Assembly (NCBI GenBank): GCA_964348725.1
Contig: CAYGDG010000001.1
Location: forward strand, 65,898 to 129,897
Source: an uncultured Candidatus Saccharibacteria bacterium
GTDB taxonomy: Bacteria; Patescibacteriota; Minisyncoccia; Phycocordibacterales; UBA9973
Direction: 5' to 3'
Length of the DNA: 64,000 nt
In this document: piece by piece, positions 9,120 to 52,716 of the stretch
How positions within the stretch are numbered: position 1 is the first letter of the stretch
Layout: each line of letters opens with the position of its first letter
Program-made: the position numbers and the translations under genes
Notes under the pieces: generated by a model
Told to the model about the DNA's origin: nothing
What the model saw: the letters and a program-made list of their open reading frames with translations, nothing else
Database searches by the model: none

Positions 9120-9980
9120 TCATTTTGCTTTGTGCTTATTTAGTAGATAAAGAATATTATTAAGCTCTAGCCATAGGTACACATATTCCTTTTCAGTAAA
9201 ATTTTTTGGCTGACCTCCATTCTCGTGGTGAACATTTTTAATTACATAATCTAGAAAATTCTCAAAGTCAGAATTACTATCGTTAAATAGTATGTTTGAT
9301 AACTGCTTTTTCTCATGGATCCGCGGAAAGGTTCCGTCTGATCTTTTATAGCCATTCTGTAATGTATTTTCCACAACCTTTTTGAGATTATCGAGTGACT
9401 TATTATAAAAAAGTTTATCACTTTTAATTACATCTTTTTTATACAAAAGAAAATCTGAGACACATTCTTGATAGCGAATTTTATTATCACCTTCTAAGTC
9501 CGAATCGTTAGAATTGATTAATCTCGTATTTATCTCGTCAATCTTCCTTCGAAAATCATGATTTTTCTTATCGTAGTAGAAATCAAGATTAAAAACACTA
9601 GGGTTATTTGAACTAGCTATCAAATCAAAAAATTTATAAGTAATCACTGTAAAATCAGATCTTCGTTCATTGGGTATTTTTTGATACTGCCATTCTTCTT
9701 TTCCGAGGTATTGTAAGATGTTTGGTAATATTTCATTAAAAAATGATAAGAAAATTTCTTGCTCACCGTTCAAGTAAGTTTCTGCCAAAAAACTCATTAC
9801 AGGGTACCCATTTCTTTTTTTCTCACTATATTTATATTGAGAATTAATATCATCCGTTAGAATATACCTAATAATATTTTTATTCTCTGCTTCATTAAAT
9901 AAATTACAGGCTGATGCGTAAAAAGATTGATAATCATGAGCAAACTTTTCAAGATTAAGTTTTTGAAATTCATCATTCAT
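9120..9980 (-). CDS. Uncharacterised 286-aa protein, operon partner of the Shedu-like nuclease
   Basis: AT-rich ORF whose start overlaps the stop of the upstream gene by 8 nt (co-operonic). Asn/Lys/Tyr-rich composition and no recognisable motif. Confidence 0.6.
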   Translation of the reverse strand: MNDEFQKLNLEKFAHDYQSFYASACNLFNEAENKNIIRYILTDDINSQYKYSEKKRNGYPVMSFLAETYLNGEQEIFLSFFNEILPNILQYLGKEEWQYQKIPNERRSDFTVITYKFFDLIASSNNPSVFNLDFYYDKKNHDFRRKIDEINTRLINSNDSDLEGDNKIRYQECVSDFLLYKKDVIKSDKLFYNKSLDNLKKVVENTLQNGYKRSDGTFPRIHEKKQLSNILFNDSNSDFENFLDYVIKNVHHENGGQPKNFTEKEYVYLWLELNNILYLLNKHKAK

Positions 9981-11040
9981 ATAATGATTTTAAAAGTTTT
10001 AACTTTGAAATGACTTCATCAAAGGTCAGTATTTGATTCTTGCCTAATGATTTTCGAAATAGATCAAAAGACTTTTTTTGAGTTTCAGAAAGCGAATCGT
10101 ATGTTCCAGCTATTAAGACTCCGCAAGGGTTTAAATGTGTGAGTCCATCAAAATCAGCACCAATTTGAGTATTAAAATATTCTGTAGCAATATGAATTTG
10201 ATTTTCCATTTGAACAACTCCACCCGATAGATCTCCATGAATGCTGTACACTTCATTTTTTTCTCCGGAATCTTTTTCTCCTCGGTAACATGAACCGACA
10301 AGCGAGCAATTTGGCTCTTTAATCTCGACAACCGCAAAACTTCCATTTGAACCATTTTTAAATAAAAAATCAGTTGCAGATCCGCCTGACCCTTGGCGGC
10401 CTTTCGAATTTTTTCCACCTAAATATGTTTCTCCATTTAAGTATATAACGGGATATAAGAAAACTTGTTGCAATACCCACGGACGTTCTTCAAAAAAGGT
10501 TTGCCAAAAAGATTCTTCGTGATTTGAAAGACTAGACTCCATGTCAGCGATAGCTTTTTCAAGTCGAGCACGTCCAATTGCAAGACCTAGATTTTCAAAA
10601 TTGTTATCTTCAAGAGATCGTAACTGTTCAATGACCCATTCTCGATTAGAGATGTCTCCAATTTGTAAAAAAATACCAGGTGCACTTTCTTTCGTTAATG
10701 GAACTACTGTCGTTCCATAGGAATGACCATACTTTGTAAGAGTACTATTAATTTCAGATAACCTACTAAGTAATAAAGATACTTCTTCACCTTTGAGGGA
10801 AAGCTCGTAGCCTTCGTCTGACTTTAACGAGCTGAGTGTTTCATGTTCAATTGTCTCCCAAGTTCCTAAACGGGATTTTCTTTCAAATCTGAATAGGCCT
10901 CTTAACGAGTTGTCTGATTCGCTTACCCAAACAGGTGCAAAGATAAGACGAGATGTACTTGTCTCACGTAGCACAATAGGACTTATGTCCATTGTGGCAT
11001 TTGATGTTGATTTGGTAATTATTCTAGCAAGCATATTCAT
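9973..11040 (-). CDS. Shedu (SduA)/DUF4263-like PD-(D/E)xK nuclease
   Basis: 355 aa. The central segment ESFWQTFFEERPWVLQQVF resembles the DUF4263 N-terminal signature. Putative catalytic residues lie in TDFLF...FAVVEIKEP (D...ExK), and the tail ILTFDEVISKL is typical of the family. AT-rich composition; the gene sits directly downstream of a tRNA. Confidence 0.5.
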   Translation of the reverse strand: MNMLARIITKSTSNATMDISPIVLRETSTSRLIFAPVWVSESDNSLRGLFRFERKSRLGTWETIEHETLSSLKSDEGYELSLKGEEVSLLLSRLSEINSTLTKYGHSYGTTVVPLTKESAPGIFLQIGDISNREWVIEQLRSLEDNNFENLGLAIGRARLEKAIADMESSLSNHEESFWQTFFEERPWVLQQVFLYPVIYLNGETYLGGKNSKGRQGSGGSATDFLFKNGSNGSFAVVEIKEPNCSLVGSCYRGEKDSGEKNEVYSIHGDLSGGVVQMENQIHIATEYFNTQIGADFDGLTHLNPCGVLIAGTYDSLSETQKKSFDLFRKSLGKNQILTFDEVISKLKLLKSLYE

Positions 11041-11067: not shown

Positions 11068-11141
11068 CGGTGACCCTACCGGGAATCGAACCCGGATTTA
11101 AGGCTTGAGAAGCCTCCGTCCTAACCGTTAGACGATAGGGC
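11068..11141 (-). tRNA. tRNA-Glu (anticodon CTC)
   Basis: Minus-strand read GGCCCTATCGTCTAACGGTTAGGACGGAGGCTTCTCAAGCCTTAAATCCGGGTTCGATTCCCGGTAGGGTCACC folds as a cloverleaf with anticodon loop TTCTCAA. D arm TCGTCTA..GGTTAGGAC is Glu-like. Confidence 0.85.
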
Positions 11142-11198
11142 CATCGACAGGTGCCTATCATAAACGATAGGCCCAAGTGGAAACATCATATCATTTAC

Positions 11199-12267: not shown

Positions 12268-13317
12268 CTATTCTTCAAATTTTGGCTTCTCGATCTCGAG
12301 GCTCGTGAGCTCAGGCGAGGAGCCGGTGATTCGCATGACGTCTTTATCTATTTGTTTCAGTGCTTTATTGGATGCGGTGTAATGGTTTACTACTGTGCCG
12401 AGCGCGTTGCCGAGCTTGAGGTGGTATTCTTCGTAGCCTTTCAAATGCTTACCGAGGTCTTCCACGCGCTTGATGATGTCTTTAGCACTTTCTTCTATCT
12501 GCATCGCTTTTAAGCCCTGGAGGACTGTCTGCAAATATGCCAGGAATGAAGTGGGCGAAGTGATGATGACTTTGTATTTGCCCGCCGCGCGCTGGATGAG
12601 GTTTTCGTTGTCTTCGTCTTTCAGTCCGCCGATCTTGTTCACCAGCAAGTCATAATAGATAGCTTCGTGGGGGATGAACATGAAAGCAAAGTCGGTGGTG
12701 CCTTGGCTCGGCTGTACGTATTTTGCTGTTTCTACTATTCTGTTTTTTAGGTCGTTCACGAATATCTTTTCATATCTTTCTTTTTCGCCCGCGTCTATCG
12801 CTTCTGCCATACGATTGTAATTTTCCAACGAGAATTTTGAATCTATCGGAATTATTTTATCTTTCACGAATACCACTGCGTCCACTATCGTGCTGTCGGG
12901 GAATGGGTACTGCATCTGGTAACTGCCGGGCGGGAGGACATTTTTCAAAACCGTCTCCAAATAATATTCGCCGAGTATTCCGCGCTGTTTTGGATTCTTT
13001 AATATATTTTGCAAGTCCTGCAATTGGTCTGCAAAGCCCACGACTTGCTTTTGCCCTTCGCCCACGCGCACGAGCTCTTCAGTAATCTCGCGGATTATTT
13101 TATTTGATTCAGTGGAGTGAAATTTAAGAGACTCATTCATTTGCTTGTGCGTGTCGCCGAGTTTCGCGTCCACTGTCTTCTGTAATTCGTTCATCTGCTG
13201 GAGCAGGAGAGAAAAGCCCGTATCGTTCTGCGTATTTTCTTTTTTTCTGCCAAAGACGAAATAAACGACCACGCCGCCTGCGATGAGCCCGATAAGTATC
13301 CAAAATCCTGTTTGCAT
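12268..13317 (-). CDS. rmuC: DNA recombination protein RmuC
   Basis: N-terminal TM helix, a long coiled coil and the conserved LGEYYLETVL, FMFIPHEAIYYD region of the RmuC family. Confidence 0.85.
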   Translation of the reverse strand: MQTGFWILIGLIAGGVVVYFVFGRKKENTQNDTGFSLLLQQMNELQKTVDAKLGDTHKQMNESLKFHSTESNKIIREITEELVRVGEGQKQVVGFADQLQDLQNILKNPKQRGILGEYYLETVLKNVLPPGSYQMQYPFPDSTIVDAVVFVKDKIIPIDSKFSLENYNRMAEAIDAGEKERYEKIFVNDLKNRIVETAKYVQPSQGTTDFAFMFIPHEAIYYDLLVNKIGGLKDEDNENLIQRAAGKYKVIITSPTSFLAYLQTVLQGLKAMQIEESAKDIIKRVEDLGKHLKGYEEYHLKLGNALGTVVNHYTASNKALKQIDKDVMRITGSSPELTSLEIEKPKFEE

Positions 13318-13624
13318 AGGTCTATTTTAGCAGGATTTATAAGAATAGAATAGCACTTGACAAAATATCTTTAATTTGCTATGCTCACTAGTAAGAATAT
13401 CTTTGCAAGTAAATACAGCCACGGGAGTGTAGCCCATTACTCGTGCTGAACATAATCAGTAGAATGAGCTTCTTGAGTCAAATTACAACAGACGATCTTT
13501 AATCTGTTGAGATGAGCCTAGTTTTTGTTTTTGGTGCACGAAAACATGACTAGTGAGATAAGTTCTATACACGTAAGCGCAGTTAGCAACTTGGATCAGC
13601 GAATGTGTTTATTGCAAAATTTTC

Positions 13625-13667
13625 AAAACCGCCCTCAAAAAATAATTGAGGCGGTTTTTTTATTTTC
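13625..13667. terminator. Bidirectional rho-independent terminator
   Basis: CCGCCCTCAA-AAAATAA-TTGAGGCGG followed by TTTTTTTATTTT, with an A-run on the other side. It lies 50 nt downstream of the exoX-like gene stop. Confidence 0.7.
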
Positions 13668-13711
13668 TGTATTTGTTAGAAATTCTGCTATGGCTGAAAA
13701 CCTAACAAAGA

Positions 13712-14425
13712 TTATTTCCCCAAAAAGTGCTCCAGCGTATAAATCCAATCTTCTTCATTTGATTCACTTTGTTTTTTCTGGGCGAGTAACCACTGCAGAT
13801 ATCCCGGGTCTATGCGCGCGACGTCTTCTACCTTTTGCCCGTTGTATTTACCGAAAGGGAATGTCCGCATCAGGGACGGCTTGGCGGAAATTTCTATCAT
13901 TTTTTCTATAGCCTCGTCTTCACTCATACCGCTGTCGGTCAATTTTTTCTGTAATCTTTCAAAAAGCTTTTCTAATACTTTCACATCACCCATGGCATCG
14001 TGCGCTTGCGCGTCTATTTCTATTTCCAAGAGGTAGCGCAAGTATTGCAGATTATATTTTTCAATTTTCCCTTCGGCGTCCAGGTCGCGCGCCACGCGCA
14101 AAGTGCAGATGAAATTTGCCGGCACTATGCCTTCATTTTTCAGCATGCCCAAATCAAAAGCCGCATTGTGCGCGACGCAGATGGTTTCAGCATCTTCAAA
14201 AAGTTCTTTTATTTTTTGCTTGCCTTCATGCTCGGCGAAAGATGCTTTGCTTTCCACCATCTTATTTGAAATGTGATGCACTGCGCTGGCTTCTGGTGGA
14301 ATTTTTACCGGCGGCTTGTAGAGGCAGTTGAATTCTTCAGCACCATACTTGTATGCCAGCTGGCAGATGTAATCAGTAGTTGTATTACCAGTAGTCTCCG
14401 TATCAAAAAATATTATTTTCTTCAT
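13712..14425 (-). CDS. DEDDh 3'-5' exonuclease (exonuclease X-like) with C-terminal DUF3820-like domain
   Basis: Exo I/II/III motifs FFDTETTG, HNAAFDLGML, HDAMGDV. The C-terminal FGKYNGQKVEDV...DPGYLQWLL resembles the ExoX C-terminal domain. Confidence 0.8.
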   Translation of the reverse strand: MKKIIFFDTETTGNTTTDYICQLAYKYGAEEFNCLYKPPVKIPPEASAVHHISNKMVESKASFAEHEGKQKIKELFEDAETICVAHNAAFDLGMLKNEGIVPANFICTLRVARDLDAEGKIEKYNLQYLRYLLEIEIDAQAHDAMGDVKVLEKLFERLQKKLTDSGMSEDEAIEKMIEISAKPSLMRTFPFGKYNGQKVEDVARIDPGYLQWLLAQKKQSESNEEDWIYTLEHFLGK

Positions 14426-14511
14426 ACTGATATTCTAGCATAATAAAAAAAGTATAAAAAATAGCCATATCAGTTTCCCAATATGGCTATTTAAATTCAA
14501 TCACTCACACA

Positions 14512-16074
14512 TTACTTTGCATACGGCTTGCAGACTTTCGCCTTCAAGGTCCAGAAGCTCACAGTGAATTTCTGCACGATATTACCGGTCACGCTTGCAG
14601 CTTTCGGAATATGAGTCAAATCAATTTTCTCTGGTGTTTGCTTAATATTATATGCATTATCCAGGTATGATCTGTACTCAATTCTTTTCCTTTCAACTTT
14701 ATTCGGCTTACCAGAAATTCTTTCTTTTTCCAGTCGTAATTTTCTTTGCTCCTCGAGTTTATCCGAAATATAATCCGCGCCGGAGCTGAGAAAAGTTTCT
14801 GTGTTTTTCCAAACTTTCTTCCTAAACTTTACAAGAAGCAAGAGAACGATAAGCCCTGCAAGTATTTTGAGTGTACTTGCAGATGTCGCACTGTTTGATA
14901 GGTGCGTCGCTACTTCAGGTTTTACCCAATTAACGGCTAAATTATATCCAAGCCAGGGAAGGAAAAAAAGAGCAAAGGCGAAGGCGGAAATCAATCCTGC
15001 CGTACCCCCACTGATTTCCTTGGGATCATCTGCCGGACGCCACGTAGCGAGAACAGGCCATAAATTTACACAAATACCAAACAGTGAAGCGGCACTTACC
15101 CAATTACTGGGTTCTTTGAATACGGAAGTCCAGAAAATTATTTGCAAAGTCACCTGGATAGTGAATGCGAGAGGTGACATCCAAACATGAATCTCCTTTT
15201 TGCCGAAAGTGTACGTCTTATAATCATCCCAATCAAGATCCTTTCCTGGGTTCGGACATTCGTCAACGTCTGCTTCCTTTTTAAAGATGTACGATGACCA
15301 AAGTTTTCCAAACCACTTCCATCTCCCGAATGAATTTGCCTGAAATCCGATAAAGAAACCACCGAGTTCAACGAATCCTTTTACTATGATCGTAACGAAT
15401 AGGGCGATTATTATGCGAACGATGAAGAAAACAATCCACCAAAGCATAAGAAGAAAATACCAAATCGGTAACGCAATCAATTTTGGGATAAACGTAAGCA
15501 AGATTCGCCTGCGCAGATCGCATTGGTCTTCCGGTTTGTGCTTGAACCACAGATTTCCAAACCAGTAGATGGCTTTGGAAACTTTTGTTTGAGGTCTCCG
15601 CGCAAAGAACGCTTCCGGAATTTCAACAAATTTTTCCGCATATGCTACCTGTCCCTCAAATGTGTCGCGCTCGCCGTTCAGATCCGAATACCAAAGCATA
15701 TGCTGATAATAGGATCCATCACGTTTGAGGAATTTTTTCTCATCTTTTTCATAAAGTTCTTTCAAGAAAATAAAGATGAGATGGTGCACTCCAGGAGAAA
15801 TAAACTGAACGAATTGGATCGGCTGATTCAATTTGAAGATCATTCTTTTGCCGCGCCTCGTGGTGTGGTTTGACTCATTACGGTCGTATTTTACGTCGTC
15901 TTCACTGCGGTCAATGATTAAGACATGTGTCGGCATTTTATCACGAACTTCTTCGTTGAAGCCATAAGTTACCGGTACTGTAGCTGAATCAAGTTGCGGT
16001 TTTCCGCCATTTAATACGACCTTCACGGAACTCTGTTCCGGGAGGAAATTTGTGTGAGGTTTTTCTGGTTCCAT
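14512..16074 (-). CDS. Large polytopic membrane protein of unknown function
   Basis: 520 aa. A soluble N-terminal domain of about 190 aa is followed by at least 8 predicted TM helices and a C-terminal charged coiled-coil tail. No family recognised. Confidence 0.7.
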   Translation of the reverse strand: MEPEKPHTNFLPEQSSVKVVLNGGKPQLDSATVPVTYGFNEEVRDKMPTHVLIIDRSEDDVKYDRNESNHTTRRGKRMIFKLNQPIQFVQFISPGVHHLIFIFLKELYEKDEKKFLKRDGSYYQHMLWYSDLNGERDTFEGQVAYAEKFVEIPEAFFARRPQTKVSKAIYWFGNLWFKHKPEDQCDLRRRILLTFIPKLIALPIWYFLLMLWWIVFFIVRIIIALFVTIIVKGFVELGGFFIGFQANSFGRWKWFGKLWSSYIFKKEADVDECPNPGKDLDWDDYKTYTFGKKEIHVWMSPLAFTIQVTLQIIFWTSVFKEPSNWVSAASLFGICVNLWPVLATWRPADDPKEISGGTAGLISAFAFALFFLPWLGYNLAVNWVKPEVATHLSNSATSASTLKILAGLIVLLLLVKFRKKVWKNTETFLSSGADYISDKLEEQRKLRLEKERISGKPNKVERKRIEYRSYLDNAYNIKQTPEKIDLTHIPKAASVTGNIVQKFTVSFWTLKAKVCKPYAK

Positions 16075-39360: not shown

Positions 39361-40024
39361 ATTTTATGTAGTCGCCACGCCGATAGGCAATATGGAAGAC
39401 ATCACGCATCGCGCGGTGCGTATTTTGGGCGAGGTGGATATGATACTCTGCGAAGACACGCGGATGACAGCAAAAATTTTAAATAAATACGGCATCAAAA
39501 AGCCAACGATGAGCTATCACGCGCAGAGTAAGCTTTCGAAGACTGAAAAGATTTTTGAACTTTTGGAAGAGGGGAAAGATTTAGCGCTGGTTTCAGATGC
39601 CGGTACGCCTGGTATATCTGACCCAGGTGCTTTACTTGTTTCTCAAATAAAAGAAAAACTGCCTGAAGTACAGGTGATTCCTGTACCCGGCCCATCCGCC
39701 CTCATCGCCGCGCTTTCAGCTTCGGGACTACCGACGCATGAATTTACATTCTTGGGATTTCTGCCACACAAGAAGGGAAGAGAAACTTTATTTAAAGAAA
39801 TAGCCGCCGCCGAACGCACGATGGCCTTTTATGAAAGCCCGCACAGAATTTTAAAAACTTTAGAATCTTTACAGAAATTTTGCCCGAATAAGAAAGTCTG
39901 TATTGCTCGCGAAATCACCAAAATATACGAAGAATTTAAAACCGGTACAGCTGCCGAGTTGTCAGCTTACTTTGCCGAAAATCCGGACAAAGTGCGCGGC
40001 GAGTTCGTAGTACTGGTGGCCTAA
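39353..40024 (+). CDS. rsmI: 16S rRNA 2'-O-ribose C1402 methyltransferase RsmI
   Basis: Tetrapyrrole-methylase fold: YVVATPIGNMEDITHRAVRIL...ILCEDTR. Confidence 0.9.
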   Translation: MPKFYVVATPIGNMEDITHRAVRILGEVDMILCEDTRMTAKILNKYGIKKPTMSYHAQSKLSKTEKIFELLEEGKDLALVSDAGTPGISDPGALLVSQIKEKLPEVQVIPVPGPSALIAALSASGLPTHEFTFLGFLPHKKGRETLFKEIAAAERTMAFYESPHRILKTLESLQKFCPNKKVCIAREITKIYEEFKTGTAAELSAYFAENPDKVRGEFVVLVA

Positions 40025-41982
40025 AGTATATCCTCAGGATCTGCATGTACAGAAAATTCCGGTGGTAGGGAAAGGATTTTTACAGCGAGGCGCTCGTCTG
40101 GCATTTTTCCGGCGGGAATTTTGATCAGCATATTTGTGATATATGCGCCTGCCTGCCGTCCGGTAAATGCGGCATAGATGTGCGGCTCGTATTCGCGGAA
40201 TACTTCGGCGAGGGCGTGCTTTATTTCAGCCGCTTGTTCGCGCGTGCCCTGGTGGGTGATTTTAAGAAAGCGCACATACGGCGGATAGCCGAGCTTTTCC
40301 CGGTCCGCTAATTCTTCGCGCACATATGGCAGGATGTTGCCTTCGGTGATGGCGCGCAGGGCCGGTTCATTCGGATTTTTTGTGCGGATGAGCAGGCGAT
40401 TGCTCTTTGCGATGATGGCAAGCAAGAGCTGGAGCGCTCGTTCGCCGATGCGGAAATTCGGTATGGAAAAAAGGGAATCAAGCGAAGCGATGACTGAGAG
40501 CGGCACGCGCTCGGGCAGATACGGAAATGCGAGCTCTGTGCCCACGAGGATGGCGCCGCGGCTCTCGGCGAATTGCGCGGCTATTTTTTTTGCCTGCGGG
40601 GCGGTCTTTACGGATTCTTTGTCCAGCTGGAATATTTCTGTTTTCGGAAAATTTTCGCGGCATGCTTCAGCCACGGCATCCGTACCCACGCCGAGCGGCA
40701 TGAGGTTCCAGCCGCCGCATGTTGCGCACTTGGTATTGGAATCTTTTTCGCTGTGGCAACGGTTGCAGGCGTAGCGGCGTTTTGATTTGTCACGCGAGAA
40801 ATACAGCACTACCGGTGCGGAGCATTTATCGCAGAATACTGGCGTGCCGCAATCGCGGCATACGGTGAGCGTGCCGAGCCCTTTGCGCAGGGAAAAGATA
40901 AAAACATTCTCGCCTTTTTGCAAAGTGCTTTGTATCTCCTCCCGTGCGGCTTCGGGCAGGATATTGAACCCGCCCGGGCGGGCAGGCTTCTCTTCTTTTT
41001 CCAGTATTTTGATTTCGCAGTCTGAATCGGTGCGGAAAGAAAATCGCACTTCGCCGAAGTGTTCGTTCTCGCGGCGGGCGATGGTGTCAAAGCGGAGCAA
41101 CGTGTCCGCAAAGATGAGCCGGGCGCCCATTTTCGCCGCGAAAAATTCGGCAAAGATGCGCAAGTCCAGATATGGGCGTGCGATGAGCTTATACGCGCCG
41201 GAGCTTTCATGCTCTATGATTACTGTGCCGATGTCGGCCCGCGGTATGGATACGTATGGCGCGGTGGCGAGGATGAGCACGGGGTGAGGGCACGCTATAG
41301 TAGCGAGCCAGGTACTCGTCTGCTTTTTTGTGGTCATGCCGCCATGGACGGAGAAAGTAAAATTCTCTATGCCTTTTTGTAATAACTCGGAAAATATTTC
41401 TATGTCGCGCTCGGTGGGCAATACGATAAAGACGGATTTTTTCTCGGCGAATGACGAGCGGATGAGCGTTTTGTAATGCGAGACGCGTTCGGCGAGTGGA
41501 GATTGGAAAAGAAGTTTTTCGGGCACGCTTCGCGCAGAATGTGAATCCTGGGGTCGCATAATTTCCTGCTGGAAATTTGCTCCTGCTCGGCCCGACGGCC
41601 TGTGCAAGACCCCAGGATTCACATTCTGCGCTTTACTGATGAGATCATAATTCTCCCGGAATGCCGCGGGGATGAGCGAAGCGATAGTGTCATTTTTTCT
41701 GGCGGCGGAATATTTTGCCAGCTCCAGCGCGCTTTCTAAAAATTCCGGGCGAAATACGGAGTTGCCTTTTACCTCGGTCACCTTGCGCAGATTGAAATCC
41801 ATATTCTTAATGTCGCTCTTTGCGCCCTCGGCATCTTCAGTGGAAGCCACCAGCCCGAGGATATTTTTTTTACGCACCGGTATTTCCACGATGGCGCCTA
41901 CAGGCGCGTCCTTTGCCGTAAAATACGTCAGGTCCTCGCGGAAAGCGCCTTTTTGGAGGGGAATTACGGTCAGGATTTTCAT
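40021..41982 (-). CDS. priA: Primosomal protein N' (PriA) with degenerate helicase motifs
   Basis: N-terminal 3' DNA-binding domain, Cys-rich zinc-binding insert (CRDCGTPVFCDKCSAPV...CNRCHS...CATCGG) and a C-terminal domain. Walker A is replaced by SPLAERVSHY and DEEH by IEHE. Confidence 0.8.
   Translation of the reverse strand: MKILTVIPLQKGAFREDLTYFTAKDAPVGAIVEIPVRKKNILGLVASTEDAEGAKSDIKNMDFNLRKVTEVKGNSVFRPEFLESALELAKYSAARKNDTIASLIPAAFRENYDLISKAQNVNPGVLHRPSGRAGANFQQEIMRPQDSHSARSVPEKLLFQSPLAERVSHYKTLIRSSFAEKKSVFIVLPTERDIEIFSELLQKGIENFTFSVHGGMTTKKQTSTWLATIACPHPVLILATAPYVSIPRADIGTVIIEHESSGAYKLIARPYLDLRIFAEFFAAKMGARLIFADTLLRFDTIARRENEHFGEVRFSFRTDSDCEIKILEKEEKPARPGGFNILPEAAREEIQSTLQKGENVFIFSLRKGLGTLTVCRDCGTPVFCDKCSAPVVLYFSRDKSKRRYACNRCHSEKDSNTKCATCGGWNLMPLGVGTDAVAEACRENFPKTEIFQLDKESVKTAPQAKKIAAQFAESRGAILVGTELAFPYLPERVPLSVIASLDSLFSIPNFRIGERALQLLLAIIAKSNRLLIRTKNPNEPALRAITEGNILPYVREELADREKLGYPPYVRFLKITHQGTREQAAEIKHALAEVFREYEPHIYAAFTGRQAGAYITNMLIKIPAGKMPDERLAVKILSLPPEFSVHADPEDIL
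40969..40982. repeat. Family-B palindrome CCCGCCCGGGCGGG inside priA
   Basis: 14-nt perfect palindrome of the CCCGCC-NN-GGCGGG type, encoding KPARPGGF on the minus strand. Confidence 0.5.
41532..41631. repeat. ~100-nt compound inverted-repeat (MITE-like) element in frame inside priA
   Basis: Perfect 24-bp arms GCGCAGAATGTGAATCCTGGGGTC and GACCCCAGGATTCACATTCTGCGC flank a 52-nt core that has its own small IRs (TTTCCTGCTGGAAA, GGCCCGACGGCC). Confidence 0.7.
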
Positions 41983-42020
41983 GGCTTTATTTTATCACAA
42001 GATGTGCTAATATTGGCTCT

Positions 42021-43036: not shown

Positions 43037-43708
43037 ATGCTTGCCGAACATTTTCACCACGCATATCTGATAGAAGGAAATGAAATTCCGGAGGATATGC
43101 GGGAATTTTGCCAGAATTCTGATCTGTGCGAGATAGTCCTGGATACTTTTAAAATAGATGATGCGAAGCACGTGCGGGCGCTGGCGGGGGAGAAAAGCAG
43201 TAAGCGGAAAATCTTTGCCGTCCGCGCGAACAGCCTGACTTTAGATGCGCAGAACGCGCTCCTGAAGATATTTGAAGAGCCTGCGCCGGACACGCATTTT
43301 CTTCTGATTGTGCCGGAGAAAGCATCGCTTTTGCCCACGCTCCTTTCGCGCTTTTATCATGTGCCGAGCGAACAGAACGTAGACACGAGGGACGCGGAAA
43401 AATTTATACGCATGCCGCGCGCGGCGAGGGTAGAGTTTTTAAAAGAACTGCTTACTGAGGAAGATTTTGAAGATGTATCAGCCGAGCTTCGCGCCGACTC
43501 GCCGCGCTCCAAAGCGCTAAAATTCTTAAATGCCCTAGAGCGCGCCCTGCATGACCAGATTTTTGCAAAGGACGGTCCTTTGCAATCCAAAGGACCGTCC
43601 TTTGCAACTTTTGACCAGATATTCACTGCCCGCGAATTTATCCGCATGCCAGGCTCTTCGGCGAAATCCCTCATGGAATCGGTCGCGCTGGCGATTCCAA
43701 ATTTTTAG
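43037..43708 (+). CDS. holB: DNA polymerase III delta' subunit (HolB), short form
   Basis: AAA+ clamp-loader layout with HAYLIEG, FEEPAPDTHFLLIV and sensor TLLSRFY. It contains an in-frame repeat insertion. Confidence 0.75.
   Translation: MLAEHFHHAYLIEGNEIPEDMREFCQNSDLCEIVLDTFKIDDAKHVRALAGEKSSKRKIFAVRANSLTLDAQNALLKIFEEPAPDTHFLLIVPEKASLLPTLLSRFYHVPSEQNVDTRDAEKFIRMPRAARVEFLKELLTEEDFEDVSAELRADSPRSKALKFLNALERALHDQIFAKDGPLQSKGPSFATFDQIFTAREFIRMPGSSAKSLMESVALAIPNF
43552..43620. mobile_element. 51-nt palindromic insertion flanked by a 9-bp target-site duplication, in frame in holB
   Basis: TGACCAGAT [TTTTGCAAAGGACGGTCCTTTGCAATCCAAAGGACCGTCCTTTGCAACTTT] TGACCAGAT. The insert is two copies of the self-complementary 20-mer CAAAGGAC(G/C)GTCCTTTGCAA. 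Insert plus duplication is 60 nt, so the frame is kept, with DQIF duplicated at protein level. Confidence 0.7.
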
Positions 43709-47336: not shown

Positions 47337-48077
47337 ATGAAAACTGCATATGCCACCTCCATACTAGAAGCTAAGGCTTCTGTTAAGCTACTCGTCAACA
47401 AAAGGAAAGAATACAAAGTCGAAAGGGTTTTTGAAACCTTGCACGATCTCGGAGTGTCACTGACTTCGGAAGAACAAGAGATTGTTATTCACTTCGTCTT
47501 AGCTCTGGACTTTGTCGACCAGATCGATGATTCGGGATATGTTCCAGATATATATGAACGATCCCTGAATTATATTTCCAGTGAGAGTGATTTCTTGCCT
47601 TTATGTTTGCCTCCAAATGTCATAGAAACTTTTGATATTTTAAAAAAAGGAATAAACAAAAGGGGGCTTAAGGAAGATCTCATAAGGCATTCAAGATCGC
47701 TTTTTTCAAAACGTTCCCAGCGGAATAATACCCTGAGTTCCTATGAATATGTCCGCTTCTCTTTGGAAGAAGGTGGACTGTATGCACAAGTGGCTTTTCT
47801 TTTTCTGCCGCGAGAAAAAATGAGCCAGAGCAGTTTAGAGCTGATTCGCGTGGGAAACTTTATCGTCCGTATTTACGATAATCTTGTCGACCTGAAGGAG
47901 GATTATCAAAAAGGACAAATAGCTTTTAGGCCAAACCTTAAAGTGCAGTTAGGTTTGAGACTAGCATTGATTATTCTAACTTTTCGCGCTTTCAGGCTAT
48001 ATCCAAAAAAGAAAGGGGCATTTGCTTTAGCGAAGAAATACCTTAAACGCTCATTACAAAGACAGGCTAATACATGA
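47337..48077 (+). CDS. Hypothetical protein
   Basis: 246-aa ORF. No domain recognised. Confidence 0.5.
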   Translation: MKTAYATSILEAKASVKLLVNKRKEYKVERVFETLHDLGVSLTSEEQEIVIHFVLALDFVDQIDDSGYVPDIYERSLNYISSESDFLPLCLPPNVIETFDILKKGINKRGLKEDLIRHSRSLFSKRSQRNNTLSSYEYVRFSLEEGGLYAQVAFLFLPREKMSQSSLELIRVGNFIVRIYDNLVDLKEDYQKGQIAFRPNLKVQLGLRLALIILTFRAFRLYPKKKGAFALAKKYLKRSLQRQANT

Positions 48078-48134
48078 TATTAGCCTGCTTTTTATTTACT
48101 TGCCTTTTCAGCCCTTTTATACTAAGATGTAGCC

Positions 48135-48293
48135 ATGTCTCAAGACCGACTTATAAAACTCGCCTGCGGAACTTGCAAGAGGATCAATTACTGGTCCAGC
48201 AAGAATAAGAAGCTCGTCACTAAAAAGATTGAGTTGAATAAATACTGCAAGTGGTGCAAGAAGAAGACCAAGCACAAAGAAATCAAGAAATAA
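48135..48293 (+). CDS. rpmG: 50S ribosomal protein L33
   Basis: MSQDRLIKLACGTCKRINYWSSKNKKLVTKKIELNKYCKWCKKKTKHKEIKK, a 52-aa zinc ribbon of the L33 type. It is missing from the ORF track because it is under 60 aa, and lies in the conserved position before tRNA-Trp. Confidence 0.8.
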   Translation: MSQDRLIKLACGTCKRINYWSSKNKKLVTKKIELNKYCKWCKKKTKHKEIKK

Positions 48294-48456
48294 TCAAGAA
48301 AATTTTGATTTTTTCTAATCTCTGATATAATCAAAGCGCAACAAAAGTTTGTTGCTTGTTCTTTCCTTGAATGGACGCGTTTTTTTAAGCGCTTCATTTC
48401 ATAGGATGCGCCGATTATTATTATCTGCGTATTCGCGTTCCGGCTCTGCCGGAATG

Positions 48457-48527
48457 TGGGCGATTAGTTAAGTGGCATAACTGCGGTCTCCAAAACCGCT
48501 GTCGTAGGTTCGATTCCTACATCGCCC
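48457..48527 (+). tRNA. tRNA-Trp (anticodon CCA)
   Basis: GGGCGATTAGTTAAGTGGCATAACTGCGGTCTCCAAAACCGCTGTCGTAGGTTCGATTCCTACATCGCCCG. Anticodon loop CTCCAAA; clean cloverleaf. Confidence 0.85.
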
Positions 48528-48600
48528 GCAAATTCACGATAGGTTATCAGGTACTAGATGCATCGTACAAATAGTTGAAGTATTAAACAAAATTTATTCT

Positions 48601-49413
48601 ATGACGGATCCTTCTACTTTAGAGCCACAAAAAATTAGGTTAGGGATAGAAATCTTGCTAGGAGGAGGATTTTTGGCATATATTTCTCTGCGAGCATTAA
48701 ATATTTACAGAGCAAAGAGAATTTTACCTGTTTCTAAAATTAGATCTCTGGCTGTTGGTCCTGTACATCTTTTAGGTAATTTAATTTCTGATTCTAAATT
48801 GACTGCTTCTATTACCGGAGAAAAAGGGGTTTTAATAGTTTCAGAAATTGAAGTCCTTAAATCAAGAAGATTATGGACACCTATTTTTAGTACTGGGCTA
48901 TGGGATAAACTTTTTATTAAAGATGAAACTGGTACTATTGAAGTTGACCCTCCACTTTTTCAGTATTTTCTCAATCCAGTTTTTAAATATCAAAGTTTTT
49001 CTAAAGTAAAAAAATCTAATACTCTGGATGCTTTTCTAAAAAAAGCTGATTTTTGCCCTCATGTTAGCTTTTTGGGTATAAGAATTCCTAAAATTTATAG
49101 AGTAAGAGAATATGTCATAAAAAATGGCTATCCAATTGAAATATTTGGATATGCTTCAATTCAATCAAAAAAGGATGGATTGACTGTAACGAGTACAGAA
49201 AAAAAGACGCTCATTTTTCAAGAAGTAGGACATAAAGATTTTCCTTATAAATCTTTGTTCTTACTGATTACGGGAGGTGCGTTGGTAGGGGTAGGTATTT
49301 CTACAATAGTATTCGCCACACAAAGTGTTTCTTCTTCTGTTCACGGTTTGCTTATATGGGTAATTGTAGTATTATTAACCCTGTTCGTTTCACTGCATTA
49401 TATATTAAAATAA
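48601..49413 (+). CDS. AT-rich membrane protein (N-terminal TM helix, C-terminal TM helices) upstream of lemA
   Basis: 270 aa with an N-terminal anchor, a soluble middle region and 2 C-terminal TM helices. Confidence 0.55.
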   Translation: MTDPSTLEPQKIRLGIEILLGGGFLAYISLRALNIYRAKRILPVSKIRSLAVGPVHLLGNLISDSKLTASITGEKGVLIVSEIEVLKSRRLWTPIFSTGLWDKLFIKDETGTIEVDPPLFQYFLNPVFKYQSFSKVKKSNTLDAFLKKADFCPHVSFLGIRIPKIYRVREYVIKNGYPIEIFGYASIQSKKDGLTVTSTEKKTLIFQEVGHKDFPYKSLFLLITGGALVGVGISTIVFATQSVSSSVHGLLIWVIVVLLTLFVSLHYILK

Positions 49414-49423
49414 ATATAAATTT

Positions 49424-49999
49424 ATGTTCACACAAATCATTATAACTAGCGTTGTTTTTCTAATCTTAGCTTTTTTATTGTATATGATTACTGTCTTTAA
49501 CAGTTTAAAAGCGGTAAAGAATAATGTGATTAAAGCCGAGGCAAATATAAAAGTTTTATTGAAACAGCGTTTTGATGAGATTCCCCAATTAGTAGAAGTT
49601 TGTAAAAAATACATGGATTATGAGACAAGTGTGTTAAAAGATCTTACTAATCTGAGAAGTGATTTTGAAGAAAAGATTAATAAAAAAGAAGAATTACAAG
49701 TTGAAGAAATAGAGAGTTTTGATGAAGAATTGAGTAATCAAATAGGTAATCTGAAAGCCACCGCTGAAAACTATCCCAACCTGAAGACTTCTGAACAATT
49801 CCTTAACCTACAAATAAGAATTTCTTCTATAGAGGAACAGATAGCAGACAGACGGGAGTTTTTCAACGAAAGTGTGAATGCCTACAATATTAATATAGAA
49901 TCATTTCCAGACATGATTATCTCTTCTATTTTGGGTTATAGAAAGAAAGATATGTTAGATATTTCTGAAAAAGAAAAGGAAATACCAAAGAATTTTTAG
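49424..49999 (+). CDS. lemA: LemA-family protein
   Basis: N-terminal TM helix followed by FNSLKAVKNNVIKAEANIKVLLKQRFDEIPQLVEVCKKYMDYE, the LemA signature. Confidence 0.8.
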   Translation: MFTQIIITSVVFLILAFLLYMITVFNSLKAVKNNVIKAEANIKVLLKQRFDEIPQLVEVCKKYMDYETSVLKDLTNLRSDFEEKINKKEELQVEEIESFDEELSNQIGNLKATAENYPNLKTSEQFLNLQIRISSIEEQIADRREFFNESVNAYNINIESFPDMIISSILGYRKKDMLDISEKEKEIPKNF

Positions 50000-50092
50000 T
50001 GTGTAAAGGACCATGTTCTGTAAAGAAAAAAAAGTTCTTTCAAAAGAATTCGGAGAAAAATACCTCAAATACAGACAACGTACTTGGTTCTA

Positions 50093-51286: not shown

Positions 51287-52623
51287 TTAATCCTGCACTG
51301 CCTGTATCTTTGCGCCGACAGAAGCGAGACGCTTTACGATATCTTCATAGCCGCGGTTTATCATGTATACACTACGGAGTGTGGATTTACCTTTGGCGGC
51401 GAGCATGGCGAGCATGATGACTACGGACGGGCGGAGCGCCGGCGGGCACACGACTTGAGCAGGCTTCCATACGGTAGGGCCTTCTATGTACACGCGATGC
51501 GGATCAGCGAGGAGTACAGTGGCGCCGAGGCGATTTAATTCGGTCAGATATATGGCGCGATTCTCATATACCCAGTCATGGATAAGCGTTTGCCCTTTTG
51601 CGCAAGCGGCGATGAGTCCAAAGAAGGGAAGATTGTCTATATTCAGCCCCGGATACGGGCGAGCTTCTATTTTATCTTCCAGCGCTTTCAACTTAGAAGG
51701 CAGGATAATTATGTCAGCAAGGCGGGTGCGGCCATTTCCGGAGAAATATTTTTTTAATACTTTATATTTGAGGCCCATCTTTTTGAGCTTATAGAGTTCC
51801 AGCTCCAAAAATTCAATCGGGCAGCGCTTCACGGTGAGCTCCGAATCAGTGGCGATAGCGGCCGTAATCCACATCATGGATTCTATCGGGTCTTCGCTGT
51901 TCGTGTATTCAATATTCTGATTTATTTCTTTCACGCCGTGGATGGTGAGCGTGGTGGTGCCGATGCCTTCTATTTTTACGCCGAGCTTTTCTAGGAAGAA
52001 GCACACTTCCTGTACCATATAATTTGCAGCAGCATATTTTATGACAGTCTTGCCCGGAATAAGCGCCGCGGCAGTGACGAGGTTCTCACAAGCAGTGTCG
52101 CCGCTCTCATACATGACGATTTCCGCAGGCTTTAATTTTTTGGCGGAAATTTCATAATTTTGATTCGTTACTTTTATTTTTACTCCCATTTCTTCCAGAC
52201 CGTAGATGTGCGCGGATACGGTGCGCTTGCCGAGCTTGCATCCTTGCGCGTGCGGCAGGGAAAATTTTTCCATGCGGTGGATGAGCGGGCCCGCGAACAT
52301 GATGATGCTTCGCGTCTTTATCGCCGAGTCAGCATCCAACCCTCCCATTTTAAAATTCTTCGGCGGAAGCACTTCCAAAGTGTGTTCGCCTTTCCAAGTA
52401 ATTTTTACGCCGATGCTCTCCAGCACTTCAATGATGCGGTATACTTCTTCAATGCGGGAAATGCCGTGGAGCGTAGTCTTGCCTTTATTCAGCAGCGCAG
52501 CGCAGAGCAAGCCCACTGAGCCGTTTTTTGATGTGTTCGTGGAAATAACACCGGAAAGTTTCCGTCCGCCTTCTATTTCAAAATTTTCTATTTTTTGTTC
52601 TTTCATAAAAATGTGTGCCGGGA
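51287..52623 (-). CDS. murA: UDP-N-acetylglucosamine 1-carboxyvinyltransferase MurA
   Basis: EPSP-synthase fold with the active-site Cys region. The true start is the ATG at 52623 (MKEQKIENFEIEGG). The ORF-track N-terminal extension reads through tRNA-Leu. Confidence 0.9.
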
Positions 52624-52632
52624 GAGAGACTT

Positions 52633-52716
52633 GAACTCTCATGGGGTTGCCCCCGAACGATTTTGAGTCGTTTGCGTCTACCAATTCCGCCATCCCGGCG
52701 ATTCTTCACAACTTAT
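52633..52716 (-). tRNA. tRNA-Leu (anticodon CAA)
   Basis: GCCGGGATGGCGGAATTGGTAGACGCAAACGACTCAAAATCGTTCGGGGGCAACCCCATGAGAGTTCAAGTCTCTCTCCCGGCA. Long variable arm, anticodon loop CTCAAAA. Confidence 0.85.

What the first reader, a model, noticed from the sequence alone, without database searches (positions are those of the whole stretch)
40021..41982. PriA with degenerate Walker A and DEEH motifs, possibly a helicase-dead primosome protein
GxTGSGKTEVY should sit ahead of the conserved LvLvPE strand, which is KKSVFIVLPTERDIEI here. At that position the sequence is LLFQSPLAERVSHYKTL, with no GKT. The expected DEEH box reads VIIEHESSGAYK.

The zinc-binding cysteine cluster and the C-terminal domain are intact. 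A PriA lacking ATPase motifs has precedent; it is reported in Deinococcus. That would imply replication restart here relies on PriA as a scaffold rather than a motor.
Basis: partly seen in the sequence, partly recalled or inferred. Interest (0 to 1): 0.55.

Follow-up and report, generated by a model that had tools for sequence, protein, structure and literature searches.

The report
Motor-dead PriA replication-restart protein, clade-wide
This gene encodes a replication-restart protein (PriA) whose ATP-driven helicase motifs have all been replaced, and the same dead but strongly conserved form occurs across a large group of tiny uncultured bacteria (Patescibacteria/Paceibacteria), widening a loss previously described only in the Deinococcus-Thermus group.

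Summary
The 653-aa ORF at 40021-41982 (-) is a full-length PriA homologue: hhalign to E. coli PriA gives 100% probability over 595 columns, and the best fold matches are the solved PriA structures (TM about 0.73).

**What is lost.** Walker A GVTGSGKT reads QSPLAERV, with K230 aligned to R166. DEEH reads EHES. Motifs III, V and VI are also lost, and the winged-helix domain is absent. No frame hides a GKT or DExH, and the window holds no second PriA.

**What is kept.** The 3' end-binding domain, both RecA-like lobes, the eight-cysteine zinc region and the C-terminal domain are all present.

**How widespread.** In 382 distinct relatives (about 31-57% identity; Nomurabacteria, Zambryskibacteria, Paceibacteria and related names) the arginine is invariant. 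The former P-loop is glycine-free and acidic, and the catalytic Glu is usually H, K or R. dN/dS is about 0.04-0.16, and the dead lobe is as constrained as the rest of the gene.

**Interpretation.** This is most likely a pseudohelicase PriA that recognises forks and recruits the replicative helicase without unwinding. It resembles Deinococcus radiodurans PriA and E. coli PriA K230R, but is more extreme. No biochemistry has been done, and I found no earlier report for this clade.

The parts
40021..41982 (-). Complete CDS of the PriA-like pseudohelicase (653 aa plus stop). It overlaps the end of the convergent rsmI-like gene by 4 nt, and its start lies 38 bp from the divergent mreB start.
   Evidence: ORF listing. 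An identical protein, P0001, is in public data. NCBIfam TIGR00595 gives E 2.9e-50, but 171 bits is below the 230 cutoff. hhalign to E. coli PriA gives 100% probability, E 2.3e-42. Foldseek best hits are the PriA structures 6dcr, 8fak, 4nl4 and 6dgd, at E 1e-38 to 1e-35 for the top four.
41668..41982 (-). 3' DNA-end-binding domain (3'BD), residues 1-105.
   Evidence: Pfam PriA_3primeBD scores 22.1 bits against a cutoff of 22.7 in this protein, and matches (E <= 0.01) in 47 of 51 diverse relatives. hhalign pairs invariant Y20 with E. coli Y18 and K/R66 with K61; E. coli D17 becomes T19 and G37 becomes R37. The pocket residues are named in PMC5778457.
41530..41613 (-). Variable, predicted-disordered linker (residues 124-151) in the position where canonical PriA has its winged-helix domain.
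   Evidence: AF2 pLDDT is below 50 over residues 124-151. hhalign leaves E. coli residues ~110-200 unmatched. Pfam PriA-like_WH matches E. coli PriA but 0 of 51 family members. The best structural match is the E. coli delta-WH construct 6dcr.
40978..41529 (-). RecA-like lobe 1 (residues 152-335), carrying the dead motifs I, Ia, II and III.
   Evidence: phmmer and hhalign alignments to E. coli PriA. pLDDT is mostly above 90. dN/dS of this lobe is 0.03-0.23 in the closest genome pairs, no higher than the rest of the gene.
41482..41505 (-). Pseudo-Walker A, QSPLAERV (residues 160-167), aligned with E. coli GVTGSGKT 224-231. R166 stands in the place of the catalytic K230.
   Evidence: Among 382 relatives: R166 in 382, Q160 in 374, D/E165 in 373, the 5-residue spacing kept in 377, no Gly in the loop in 348, and loop net charge <= -2 in 309.
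41203..41214 (-). Pseudo-motif II, EHES (residues 257-260), aligned with E. coli DEEH 320-323.
   Evidence: In the family, position 257 is E in 305 and D in 77. Position 258 (the catalytic Glu) is H 134, K 115, R 75, N 22 and E only 9. E259 is kept in 376 of 382. Relic DEEH or EEEH survives in P0235, P0205 and P0248.
41158..41193 (-). Remnant of the aromatic-rich loop region, YKLIARPYLDLR (residues 264-275), just after motif II.
   Evidence: It aligns with E. coli SSYKQQEGWRYHARD. Y264 is kept in 366, K/R265 in 357, P270 in 366, D273 in 378 and R275 in 372 of 382. A role in ssDNA binding is inferred from PMC5175346 (abstract).
41098..41109 (-). Motif III remnant, ADTL (residues 292-295), aligned with E. 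coli GSAT.
   Evidence: D293 is kept in 364 of 382.
40288..40965 (-). RecA-like lobe 2 with the inserted CRR (residues 340-565). Motif IV is partly kept (SLRKG against NRRG). Motif V has lost KGHHF. Motif VI reads ERALQLLLAIIAKSNR and has no GRAGR arginine finger.
   Evidence: Position 524 is Arg in only 187 of 382, so there is no conserved arginine finger.
40717..40860 (-). Cysteine-rich region, residues 375-422: four CxxC pairs, enough for two zinc sites.
   Evidence: Each of the eight Cys is conserved in 379-382 of 382 relatives. The region aligns with the E. coli CRR. Pfam Zn_ribbon_PriA matches 9 of 51 relatives.
40024..40275 (-). C-terminal domain, residues 570-653, with a beta-alpha-beta-beta-alpha-beta pattern and a terminal VDPE motif.
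   Evidence: AF2 secondary structure and pLDDT 70-92. hhalign aligns it with E. coli residues 633-729, including the final VDP. Pfam PriA_C is detectable in 2 of 51 relatives.

Best explanation
The gene encodes an orthologue of the replication-restart protein PriA that has become a pseudohelicase. It keeps the PriA architecture except for the winged-helix domain: the 3'BD, two RecA-like lobes, a two-zinc CRR and the C-terminal domain. It can no longer bind or hydrolyse ATP, because every nucleotide-handling motif (I, II, III, V, VI) has been replaced.

The former nucleotide pocket was rebuilt, not left to decay. A glycine-free, usually acidic five-residue loop leads to an invariant Arg at the Walker A lysine position, and this faces an E-[H/K/R]-E triad at the DExH position.

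Inferred mechanism:
1. The protein recognises abandoned forks or D-loops through the 3'BD and the lobe surfaces.
2. It threads or clamps lagging-strand template that is already single-stranded, using the CRR.
3. It then acts as a passive platform that recruits the replicative helicase, either directly as in D. radiodurans or through a loader.
4. Any duplex on the lagging arm would have to be cleared by another enzyme.

What is shown: homology, fold, motif loss, clade-wide fixation and purifying selection. What is inferred: lack of ATPase activity, retained fork binding, the scaffold role and the partner.
For: **Homology and fold.** TIGR00595 gives E 2.9e-50. Solved PriA structures match at E 1e-27. 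hhalign gives 100% probability over 595 columns, spanning E. coli residues 15-729. The AF2 model has pLDDT 82 and pTM 0.83. Its nine best PDB matches are all PriA (TM 0.66-0.73 normalised to the query, E 1e-38 to 1e-27); the next hits, Mfd and others, are only at 1e-8.

**Motif loss.** Pfam DEAD, ResIII and Helicase_C match E. coli PriA but not this protein, and DEAD and Helicase_C each match only 4 of 51 relatives. No alternative frame or site carries the motifs.

**Why the changes are inactivating.** K230R alone abolishes E. coli PriA ATPase and helicase activity while leaving primosome assembly and viability intact (PMC5778457; PMC4504706). D. radiodurans PriA, which has the same K-to-R change, has no ATPase or helicase activity but binds ssDNA, forks and DnaB.

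**Not a pseudogene.** 79 of 80 genomic copies are intact. dN/dS is 0.04-0.16 for the whole gene and 0.03-0.23 for the dead lobe. R166 is one of only 21 invariant residues across 51 sequences at 31-50% identity, and it is kept in 382 of 382.

**Orthology.** priA sits next to mreB-holB-frr-rseP in 79 of 80 related genomes. In divergent members priA-def-fmt is found, which is the Bacillus gene order from my own knowledge.

**A motor-free route is plausible.** On forks with an ssDNA lagging arm of at least 11 nt, E. coli PriA reaches the CRR-up, partner-binding state without unwinding (PMC13594977).
Against: - No biochemical measurement exists for any member of this family, so loss of ATPase activity is inferred from sequence alone.
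- The invariance of R166, E259 and their neighbours shows the pocket still matters. A non-canonical ligand or activity is therefore not strictly excluded.
- Only 64 kb of the genome was visible, so a second, canonical PriA or another restart helicase elsewhere in the genome cannot be ruled out.
- No partner (DnaB, DciA, DnaD, DnaI, PriB or SSB) was identified in the window.
- The protein scores below the curated cutoff of every NCBIfam PriA model.
- dS in the pairs used is 0.5-2, close to saturation, so the dN/dS values are approximate.
Confidence: 0.75

Rival explanations
1. The protein is still an NTPase or helicase that uses a non-canonical active site, with Arg166 replacing the Walker lysine, E257 coordinating the metal and E259 acting as the catalytic base.
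For: R166, E/D257 and E259 are almost invariant, and the spacing from Q160 to R166 equals that from G224 to K230. Strong constraint on lobe 1 shows the pocket is functional in some sense.
Against: - The loop has no glycines in 348 of 382 members and is net acidic in most. That is incompatible with a phosphate-binding P-loop.
- K230R alone kills the E. coli enzyme.
- The motif VI arginine finger, motif III and the motif V KGHHF are all gone, and no conserved Arg replaces the finger.
- The catalytic-Glu position is basic in 324 of 382 members.
- Generic helicase HMMs do not match the protein.
Confidence: 0.06
2. The protein has been neofunctionalised. It is derived from PriA but no longer works in replication restart. 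For example, it might be a zinc-ribbon DNA- or protein-binding factor tied to the cell-shape and division genes beside it.
For: Its position divergent from mreB, about 38 bp away in most genomes, is conserved in 79 of 80 related genomes. It falls below every curated PriA cutoff. The WH domain and the motor are both lost.
Against: The parts that define PriA's fork recognition and partner docking are exactly those retained and conserved: the 3'BD with the Y and K/R pocket residues, the CRR and the CTD. The neighbouring cluster also includes a holB-like clamp-loader subunit gene. More divergent members sit in the priA-def-fmt arrangement instead, so linkage to mreB is clade-specific. The Deinococcus and K230R precedents show that restart function survives loss of the motor.
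Confidence: 0.12
3. It is a decaying pseudogene, or an assembly or frameshift artefact that merely looks like a motif-less PriA.
For: None beyond the missing motifs and the sub-threshold HMM scores.
Against: - The ORF is an uninterrupted 653 codons, and an identical protein was recovered in independent data.
- More than 380 full-length relatives carry the same substitutions.
- 1,288 clusters at 50% identity score below E 1e-30.
- dN/dS is about 0.04-0.16.
- The fold is predicted with confidence.
- No motif is hidden in another frame.
Confidence: 0.01

Closest known systems
Deinococcus radiodurans / Deinococcus-Thermus PriA pseudohelicase (Lopper, Boone & Morrow 2015, PMC4504706)
   Same: Both are PriA orthologues with Lys-to-Arg at the Walker A lysine and a degenerate Walker B. 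Both are retained as intact genes, and the proposed role is fork binding and helicase recruitment without unwinding.
   Different: - Here the whole P-loop is replaced by a glycine-free acidic loop. The paper describes the Deinococcus-Thermus change as an Arg within the GKT sequence.
- The catalytic Glu is replaced by H, K or R.
- Motifs III, V and VI are also lost, and the WH domain is missing.
- The lineage is Patescibacteria/Minisyncoccota, not Deinococcus-Thermus.
- No biochemistry exists for this family.
- Whether the two losses are independent was not tested, because no Deinococcus sequence could be obtained.
E. coli PriA K230R (priA300)
   Same: It has Arg at the same position. It lacks ATPase, helicase and translocase activity yet still supports primosome assembly and near-wild-type growth through the PriA-PriB pathway (PMC5778457).
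   Different: It is an engineered single substitution in an otherwise canonical enzyme with a WH domain. It depends on PriB and DnaT, which were not found in the window here. It is defective in the PriA-PriC route.
E. coli PriA winged-helix deletion construct (PDB 6dcr)
   Same: It is the best structural match to the model (E 1.2e-38, TM 0.73/0.75) and has the same domain set: 3'BD, two lobes, CRR and CTD, without WH.
   Different: It is an artificial deletion that keeps an intact ATPase. Here WH loss is natural, is seen in all 51 relatives tested, and is combined with a dead motor.
Bacillus subtilis PriA (PriA-DnaD-DnaB-DnaI restart system)
   Same: Divergent family members share the priA-def-fmt gene order (the Bacillus order is from my own knowledge). 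[quoted passage not shown]
   Different: Bacillus PriA is an active 3'-5' helicase with canonical motifs. Its partners DnaD, DnaB and DnaI were not looked for genome-wide here.

Membership tests
PriA (primosomal protein N' / replication restart protein) | N-terminal 3' DNA-end-binding domain | tested here: met
   Pfam PF17764 scores 22.1 bits in this protein, just under the 22.7 cutoff, and matches (E <= 0.01) in 47 of 51 relatives. hhalign aligns the domain and pairs Y20 with Y18 and K/R66 with K61.
PriA (primosomal protein N' / replication restart protein) | Winged-helix DNA-binding domain between the 3'BD and the helicase core | tested here: not met
   PF21213 matches E. coli PriA but 0 of 51 relatives. 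Residues 124-151 are predicted disordered. E. coli residues ~110-200 are unmatched in hhalign. The best fold match is the delta-WH construct.
PriA (primosomal protein N' / replication restart protein) | Two RecA-like SF2 lobes with the PriA-specific overall fold | tested here: met
   The nine best Foldseek PDB hits are all PriA, at TM 0.66-0.73 normalised to the query. hhalign gives 100% probability.
PriA (primosomal protein N' / replication restart protein) | Cysteine-rich region with eight Cys (two zinc sites) inserted in lobe 2 | tested here: met
   C375, 378, 384, 387, 406, 409, 419 and 422 are each kept in 379-382 of 382 relatives and align with the E. coli CRR. Zinc binding itself was not measured.
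PriA (primosomal protein N' / replication restart protein) | C-terminal domain | tested here: met
   hhalign aligns residues ~570-649 with E. coli 633-729. AF2 gives a beta-alpha-beta-beta-alpha-beta pattern. PF18074 matches only 2 of 51 relatives.
PriA (primosomal protein N' / replication restart protein) | Helicase motifs I (GxxGxGKT), II (DEEH), III, V and VI, giving ATPase and 3'-5' helicase activity | tested here: not met
   The sequence reads QSPLAERV, EHES, ADTL, no KGHHF, and AIIAKSNR. The same holds in 382 relatives. Activity itself is not testable with these tools.
PriA (primosomal protein N' / replication restart protein) | Score above the curated family cutoffs (TIGR00595 and the NF0040xx / NF0114xx equivalogs) | tested here: not met
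   The best scores are 172 bits against a cutoff of 813 and 171 bits against 230. This fits NCBI naming many members 'hypothetical protein'.
PriA (primosomal protein N' / replication restart protein) | Function in replisome reloading at abandoned forks | not testable with these tools
   This needs genetics or biochemistry.
PriA pseudohelicase (Deinococcus-Thermus type, PMC4504706) | Walker A lysine replaced by arginine | tested here: met
   R166 aligns with K230 and is Arg in 382 of 382 relatives.
PriA pseudohelicase (Deinococcus-Thermus type, PMC4504706) | Poor match to the Walker B / DExH consensus | tested here: met
   The motif reads EHES. The catalytic Glu is kept in only 9 of 382 relatives.
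PriA pseudohelicase (Deinococcus-Thermus type, PMC4504706) | No ATP hydrolysis or duplex unwinding in vitro, while ssDNA, fork and DnaB binding are retained | not testable with these tools
   This is known only for D. radiodurans PriA.
PriA pseudohelicase (Deinococcus-Thermus type, PMC4504706) | Common descent with the Deinococcus-Thermus PriA clade, as opposed to an independent loss | not tested
The host phyla are different.

The most novel reading that the evidence does not exclude
The rebuilt pocket is a functional device and not a scar. The acidic, glycine-free loop, the invariant Arg166 and the E-[H/K/R]-E triad would form an internal charge network that mimics a bound nucleotide. This would lock the two RecA lobes in one conformation, so that PriA adopts the partner-competent state on forks constitutively, without an ATP cycle or a WH domain. 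That would make ATP-independent restart the norm for a whole bacterial radiation. A more exotic version is that the pocket binds a different anionic ligand or a partner peptide.
Probability: 0.2. Interest if true: 0.65.

Novelty: new variant of a known kind. Interest (0 to 1): 0.45.

Why it matters
[quoted passage not shown] This finding indicates a second and much larger exception. It covers on the order of a thousand clusters at 50% identity in the Paceibacteria ("Parcubacteria") part of the candidate phyla radiation. All of them carry a motor-dead, WH-less PriA under strong purifying selection.

- **PriA function.** It supports the idea that fork recognition and helicase recruitment are the core, indispensable job of PriA, and that unwinding is an accessory.
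- **A natural minimal PriA.** The family is a natural minimal version of the protein that could be used to dissect those steps.
- **An open question.** It raises the question of how ultra-small, host-dependent cells clear duplex lagging arms at stalled forks.
- **An annotation gap.** NCBI labels many members 'hypothetical protein' because they fall below the curated PriA cutoffs.

Tried and rejected
1. **Hidden motifs.** I searched all three frames of the gene, and the whole window in six frames, for GxxxxGK[ST], GKT/GKS, DExH and G.TGSGKT. There was nothing in frame, and tblastn with E. coli PriA hit only this gene.
2. **Apparent Walker A strings in relatives.** Both examples are single chance matches and were rejected.
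   - GEFARGKS in P0174 lies one helix downstream of the P-loop column.
   - GAGKT in P0363 lies in the variable linker, and that protein still has Arg at column 166.
3. **Reaching the boundary with canonical PriA.** I searched with P0235, which keeps DEEH. All 120 of its relatives are still degenerate at Walker A, so the boundary was not reached.
4. **Naming the divergent members.** The listing of cluster members returned no names. The look-up of encoding contigs gave assembly accessions and gene context only.
5. **Genome scan.** The diverse alignment A2 was too divergent for the search for related loci. A1 worked but returned only close relatives.
6. **Deinococcus-Thermus sequence.** I could not obtain one, so independent versus shared loss is unresolved.
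7. **Defence-system role.** PADLOC found no match for this protein.
8. **Salt-bridge hypothesis.** It could not be tested because model coordinates are not returned. Basic residues at position 258 are about three times more likely when the loop is acidic (odds ratio about 3 from the counts). This is not corrected for phylogeny and is weak.
9. **Literature.** Searches for PriA together with Patescibacteria, Parcubacteria, candidate phyla radiation or pseudohelicase found no earlier description.
Full report
**1. What is at the coordinates**

The window holds an uninterrupted 653-codon ORF on the minus strand at 40021-41982. A protein identical to it is already in public metagenome and genome data (P0001). 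The sequence composition, gene content and the source names of relatives (Candidatus Nomurabacteria, Paceibacterota, Minisyncoccia, Patescibacteria group) place the window in a Patescibacteria/CPR genome of the Paceibacteria type.

**2. It is a PriA homologue**

- NCBIfam PriA models match strongly (TIGR00595 E 2.9e-50, NF004066 E 1.5e-50), but every score is below its curated cutoff, for example 171 bits against 230.
- phmmer finds only PriA among solved structures, from K. pneumoniae and E. coli, at E 1e-27 to 2e-25.
- A profile of 51 diverse relatives aligns with E. coli PriA at 100% probability (E 2.3e-42) over 595 columns, covering E. coli residues 15-729.
- An AlphaFold2 model built on 67 sequences has pLDDT 82 and pTM 0.83.
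- The nine best PDB matches to that model are all PriA (E 1e-38 to 1e-27, TM about 0.66-0.73 normalised to the query). The next matches, Mfd and DEAD-box proteins, are only at 1e-8.

**3.

E. coli motifs and what stands in their place:

| Motif | E. coli PriA | This protein |
|---|---|---|
| I (Walker A) | GVTGSGKT (224-231) | QSPLAERV (160-167); K230 = R166 |
| Ia | VPE | LPT |
| II | DEEH (320-323) | EHES (257-260) |
| III | GSAT | ADTL |
| V | KGHHF present | lost |
| VI | QxxGRAGR | AIIAKSNR |

Pfam gives a useful control. E. coli PriA matches PriA_3primeBD, PriA-like_WH, DEAD, ResIII, Helicase_C, Zn_ribbon_PriA and PriA_C. This protein matches only PriA_3primeBD, and only at borderline score.

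No frame of the gene encodes a usable GKT or DExH, and tblastn with E. coli PriA finds no second PriA-like gene in the window.

**4. What is kept**

- **3'BD.** It is detectable in 47 of 51 relatives. hhalign pairs invariant Y20 with E. coli Y18 and K/R66 with K61, two of the four residues that form the 3'-end pocket.
- **CRR.** Each of the eight cysteines is present in 379-382 of 382 relatives.
- **C-terminal domain.** It aligns through to the terminal VDP.
- **Region after motif II.** The YK...P..D.R stretch, equivalent to the aromatic-rich loop region, is highly conserved.

**5. What else is missing**

The winged-helix domain is absent.
- Residues 124-151 form a variable, low-confidence linker.
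- The E. coli WH region has no counterpart in hhalign.
- PF21213 matches none of the 51 relatives.
- The single best structural match is the engineered E. coli delta-WH PriA, 6dcr.

**6. This is a clade-wide, fixed state**

The word-indexed search found more than 540 relatives, and the top 120 were full-length at about 50% identity. The exhaustive search of 1.84 billion cluster representatives found 11,767 hits at E <= 1e-3 and 1,288 at E <= 1e-30. The best 150 reach down to 33% identity. A further search seeded with a divergent member added 118 more.

Results from pooling 382 distinct full-length sequences:

| Feature | Count (of 382) |
|---|---|
| Arg at the K230 column | 382 |
| Five-residue spacing from Q160 to R166, as in G224 to K230 | 377 |
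| No glycine in that loop | 348 |
| Loop net charge <= -2 | 309 |
| Walker B Asp position | E 305, D 77 |
| Catalytic Glu position | H 134, K 115, R 75 (E only 9) |
| Following Glu (E259) kept | 376 |

A few members keep a relic DEEH or EEEH while already lacking Walker A. That fits descent from a canonical PriA with stepwise remodelling.

**7. Selection and orthology**

79 of 80 copies recovered from GTDB species-representative genomes are intact. Nei-Gojobori dN/dS for the twelve closest pairs is 0.04-0.16 for the whole gene and 0.03-0.23 for the former ATPase lobe, so that lobe is no less constrained than the rest. dS is high (0.5-2), so these values are approximate.

R166 is one of only 21 invariant positions among 51 sequences at 31-50% identity.

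Gene order also supports orthology. priA lies divergently beside mreB-holB-frr-rseP in 79 of 80 genomes. In more divergent members it is followed by def and fmt, which is the Bacillus order from my own knowledge.

**8. Mechanism**

Established knowledge:
- K230R alone abolishes E. coli PriA ATPase, helicase and translocase activity. Primosome assembly and growth through the PriA-PriB route remain intact (PMC5778457; PMC4504706).
- D. radiodurans PriA has the same K-to-R change. It has no measurable ATPase or helicase activity but binds ssDNA and forks with near-normal affinity and binds DnaB.
- In E. coli, a fork whose lagging arm is already single-stranded (at least 11 nt) lets the CRR swing up and expose partner sites without unwinding. 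A duplex lagging arm does not (PMC13594977).

My inference is as follows. This protein recognises forks through its 3'BD and lobe surfaces. It engages lagging-strand template that is already single-stranded, and it recruits the replicative helicase without using ATP. Duplex lagging arms would have to be cleared by another enzyme.

The new pocket has a striking charge pattern: an acidic loop, an invariant Arg and an E-basic-E triad. This suggests an internal salt-bridge network that fills the former nucleotide site.

**9. Rivals**

- **Non-canonical ATPase.** This is unlikely given the glycine-free acidic loop, the missing arginine finger and the basic residue at the catalytic position.
- **Pseudogene or artefact.** This is excluded by the conservation, the selection data and the independent recoveries.
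- **Neofunctionalisation away from restart.** This cannot be excluded, but it is not favoured, because the retained parts are exactly PriA's recognition and docking modules.

**10. Limits**

- No biochemistry exists for this family.
- Only 64 kb of the genome was seen. No helicase, loader or SSB gene was found in the window, and a canonical paralogue elsewhere in the genome cannot be excluded.
- The boundary with canonical PriA inside Patescibacteria was not reached.
- The relationship to Deinococcus-Thermus PriA was not tested.
- Literature searches in the held library found no earlier description of this state in CPR/Patescibacteria. The library does not cover all journals.

**11. Verdict**

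It is a second and far larger lineage of PriA pseudohelicases. It is more extreme than the Deinococcus case, with all ATP motifs replaced, the pocket rebuilt and the WH domain lost. I rate it a new variant of a known kind and of moderate interest.

Noticed in passing
window 9973-11040 (-), with neighbours 9120-9980 (-) and tRNA 11071-11142 (-): A Shedu anti-phage defence gene (SduA; PADLOC E 3.8e-67; Pfam SduA_N and SduA_C) lies in a lower-GC stretch (about 0.39-0.42, 8-16 kb), directly beside a tRNA gene. An ORF with no family match overlaps it by 8 nt. This may be a small defence island in a CPR genome.
   Followed up: partly
window 12268-16074 (-): An RmuC-family protein (12268-13317, with a weak PADLOC DRT-associated RmuC hit), an ExoX/RNase T-like exonuclease (13712-14425) and a 520-aa ORF with no Pfam or PADLOC match (14512-16074) follow the Shedu gene on the same strand.
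   Followed up: partly
window 43037-43708 (+): The DNA polymerase III delta'-like (holB) gene next to mreB encodes only 223 aa, and only residues 53-108 match the Pfam DNA_pol3_delta2 model. It looks like an unusually short clamp-loader subunit, and it is conserved beside priA and mreB in 75 of 80 related genomes.
   Followed up: no
window 47337-50000: This is the lowest-GC stretch in the window (0.33 at 48-50 kb). It holds a tRNA (48458-48528), two ORFs with no Pfam or PADLOC match (47337-48077 and 48601-49413) and a LemA-family gene. It may be an acquired segment.
   Followed up: no
window 52616-52699 (-) against ORF 51287-52693 (-): A tRNA gene overlaps the first ~78 nt of the mechanically listed EPSP-synthase-fold ORF, so the true start codon of that gene is probably further downstream.
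   Followed up: no
window 40021-40024 and 41983-42020; loci L002-L081: priA and the rsmI-like gene converge and overlap by 4 nt. The priA and mreB start codons are only 38 bp apart and divergent, and mreB lies divergently next to priA in 79 of 80 related genomes. The promoters must therefore lie inside the neighbouring coding regions.
   Followed up: partly
loci L013, L037, L039, L041 and others: Several GTDB representative records that carry this Paceibacteria-type gene at 47-51% identity are titled 'Burkholderiales bacterium' or 'uncultured Candidatus Saccharibacteria bacterium'. These are probably mislabelled or contaminated MAGs. In addition, NCBI names many family members 'hypothetical protein', which is an annotation gap caused by the sub-threshold PriA HMM scores.
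   Followed up: no
locus L083 4504-6771 (-): In one divergent relative, a 755-aa DEAH/HA2/OB-fold (HrpA-like) helicase gene lies about 2 kb downstream of priA-def-fmt. It is a candidate alternative motor in the neighbourhood, seen only once.
   Followed up: no
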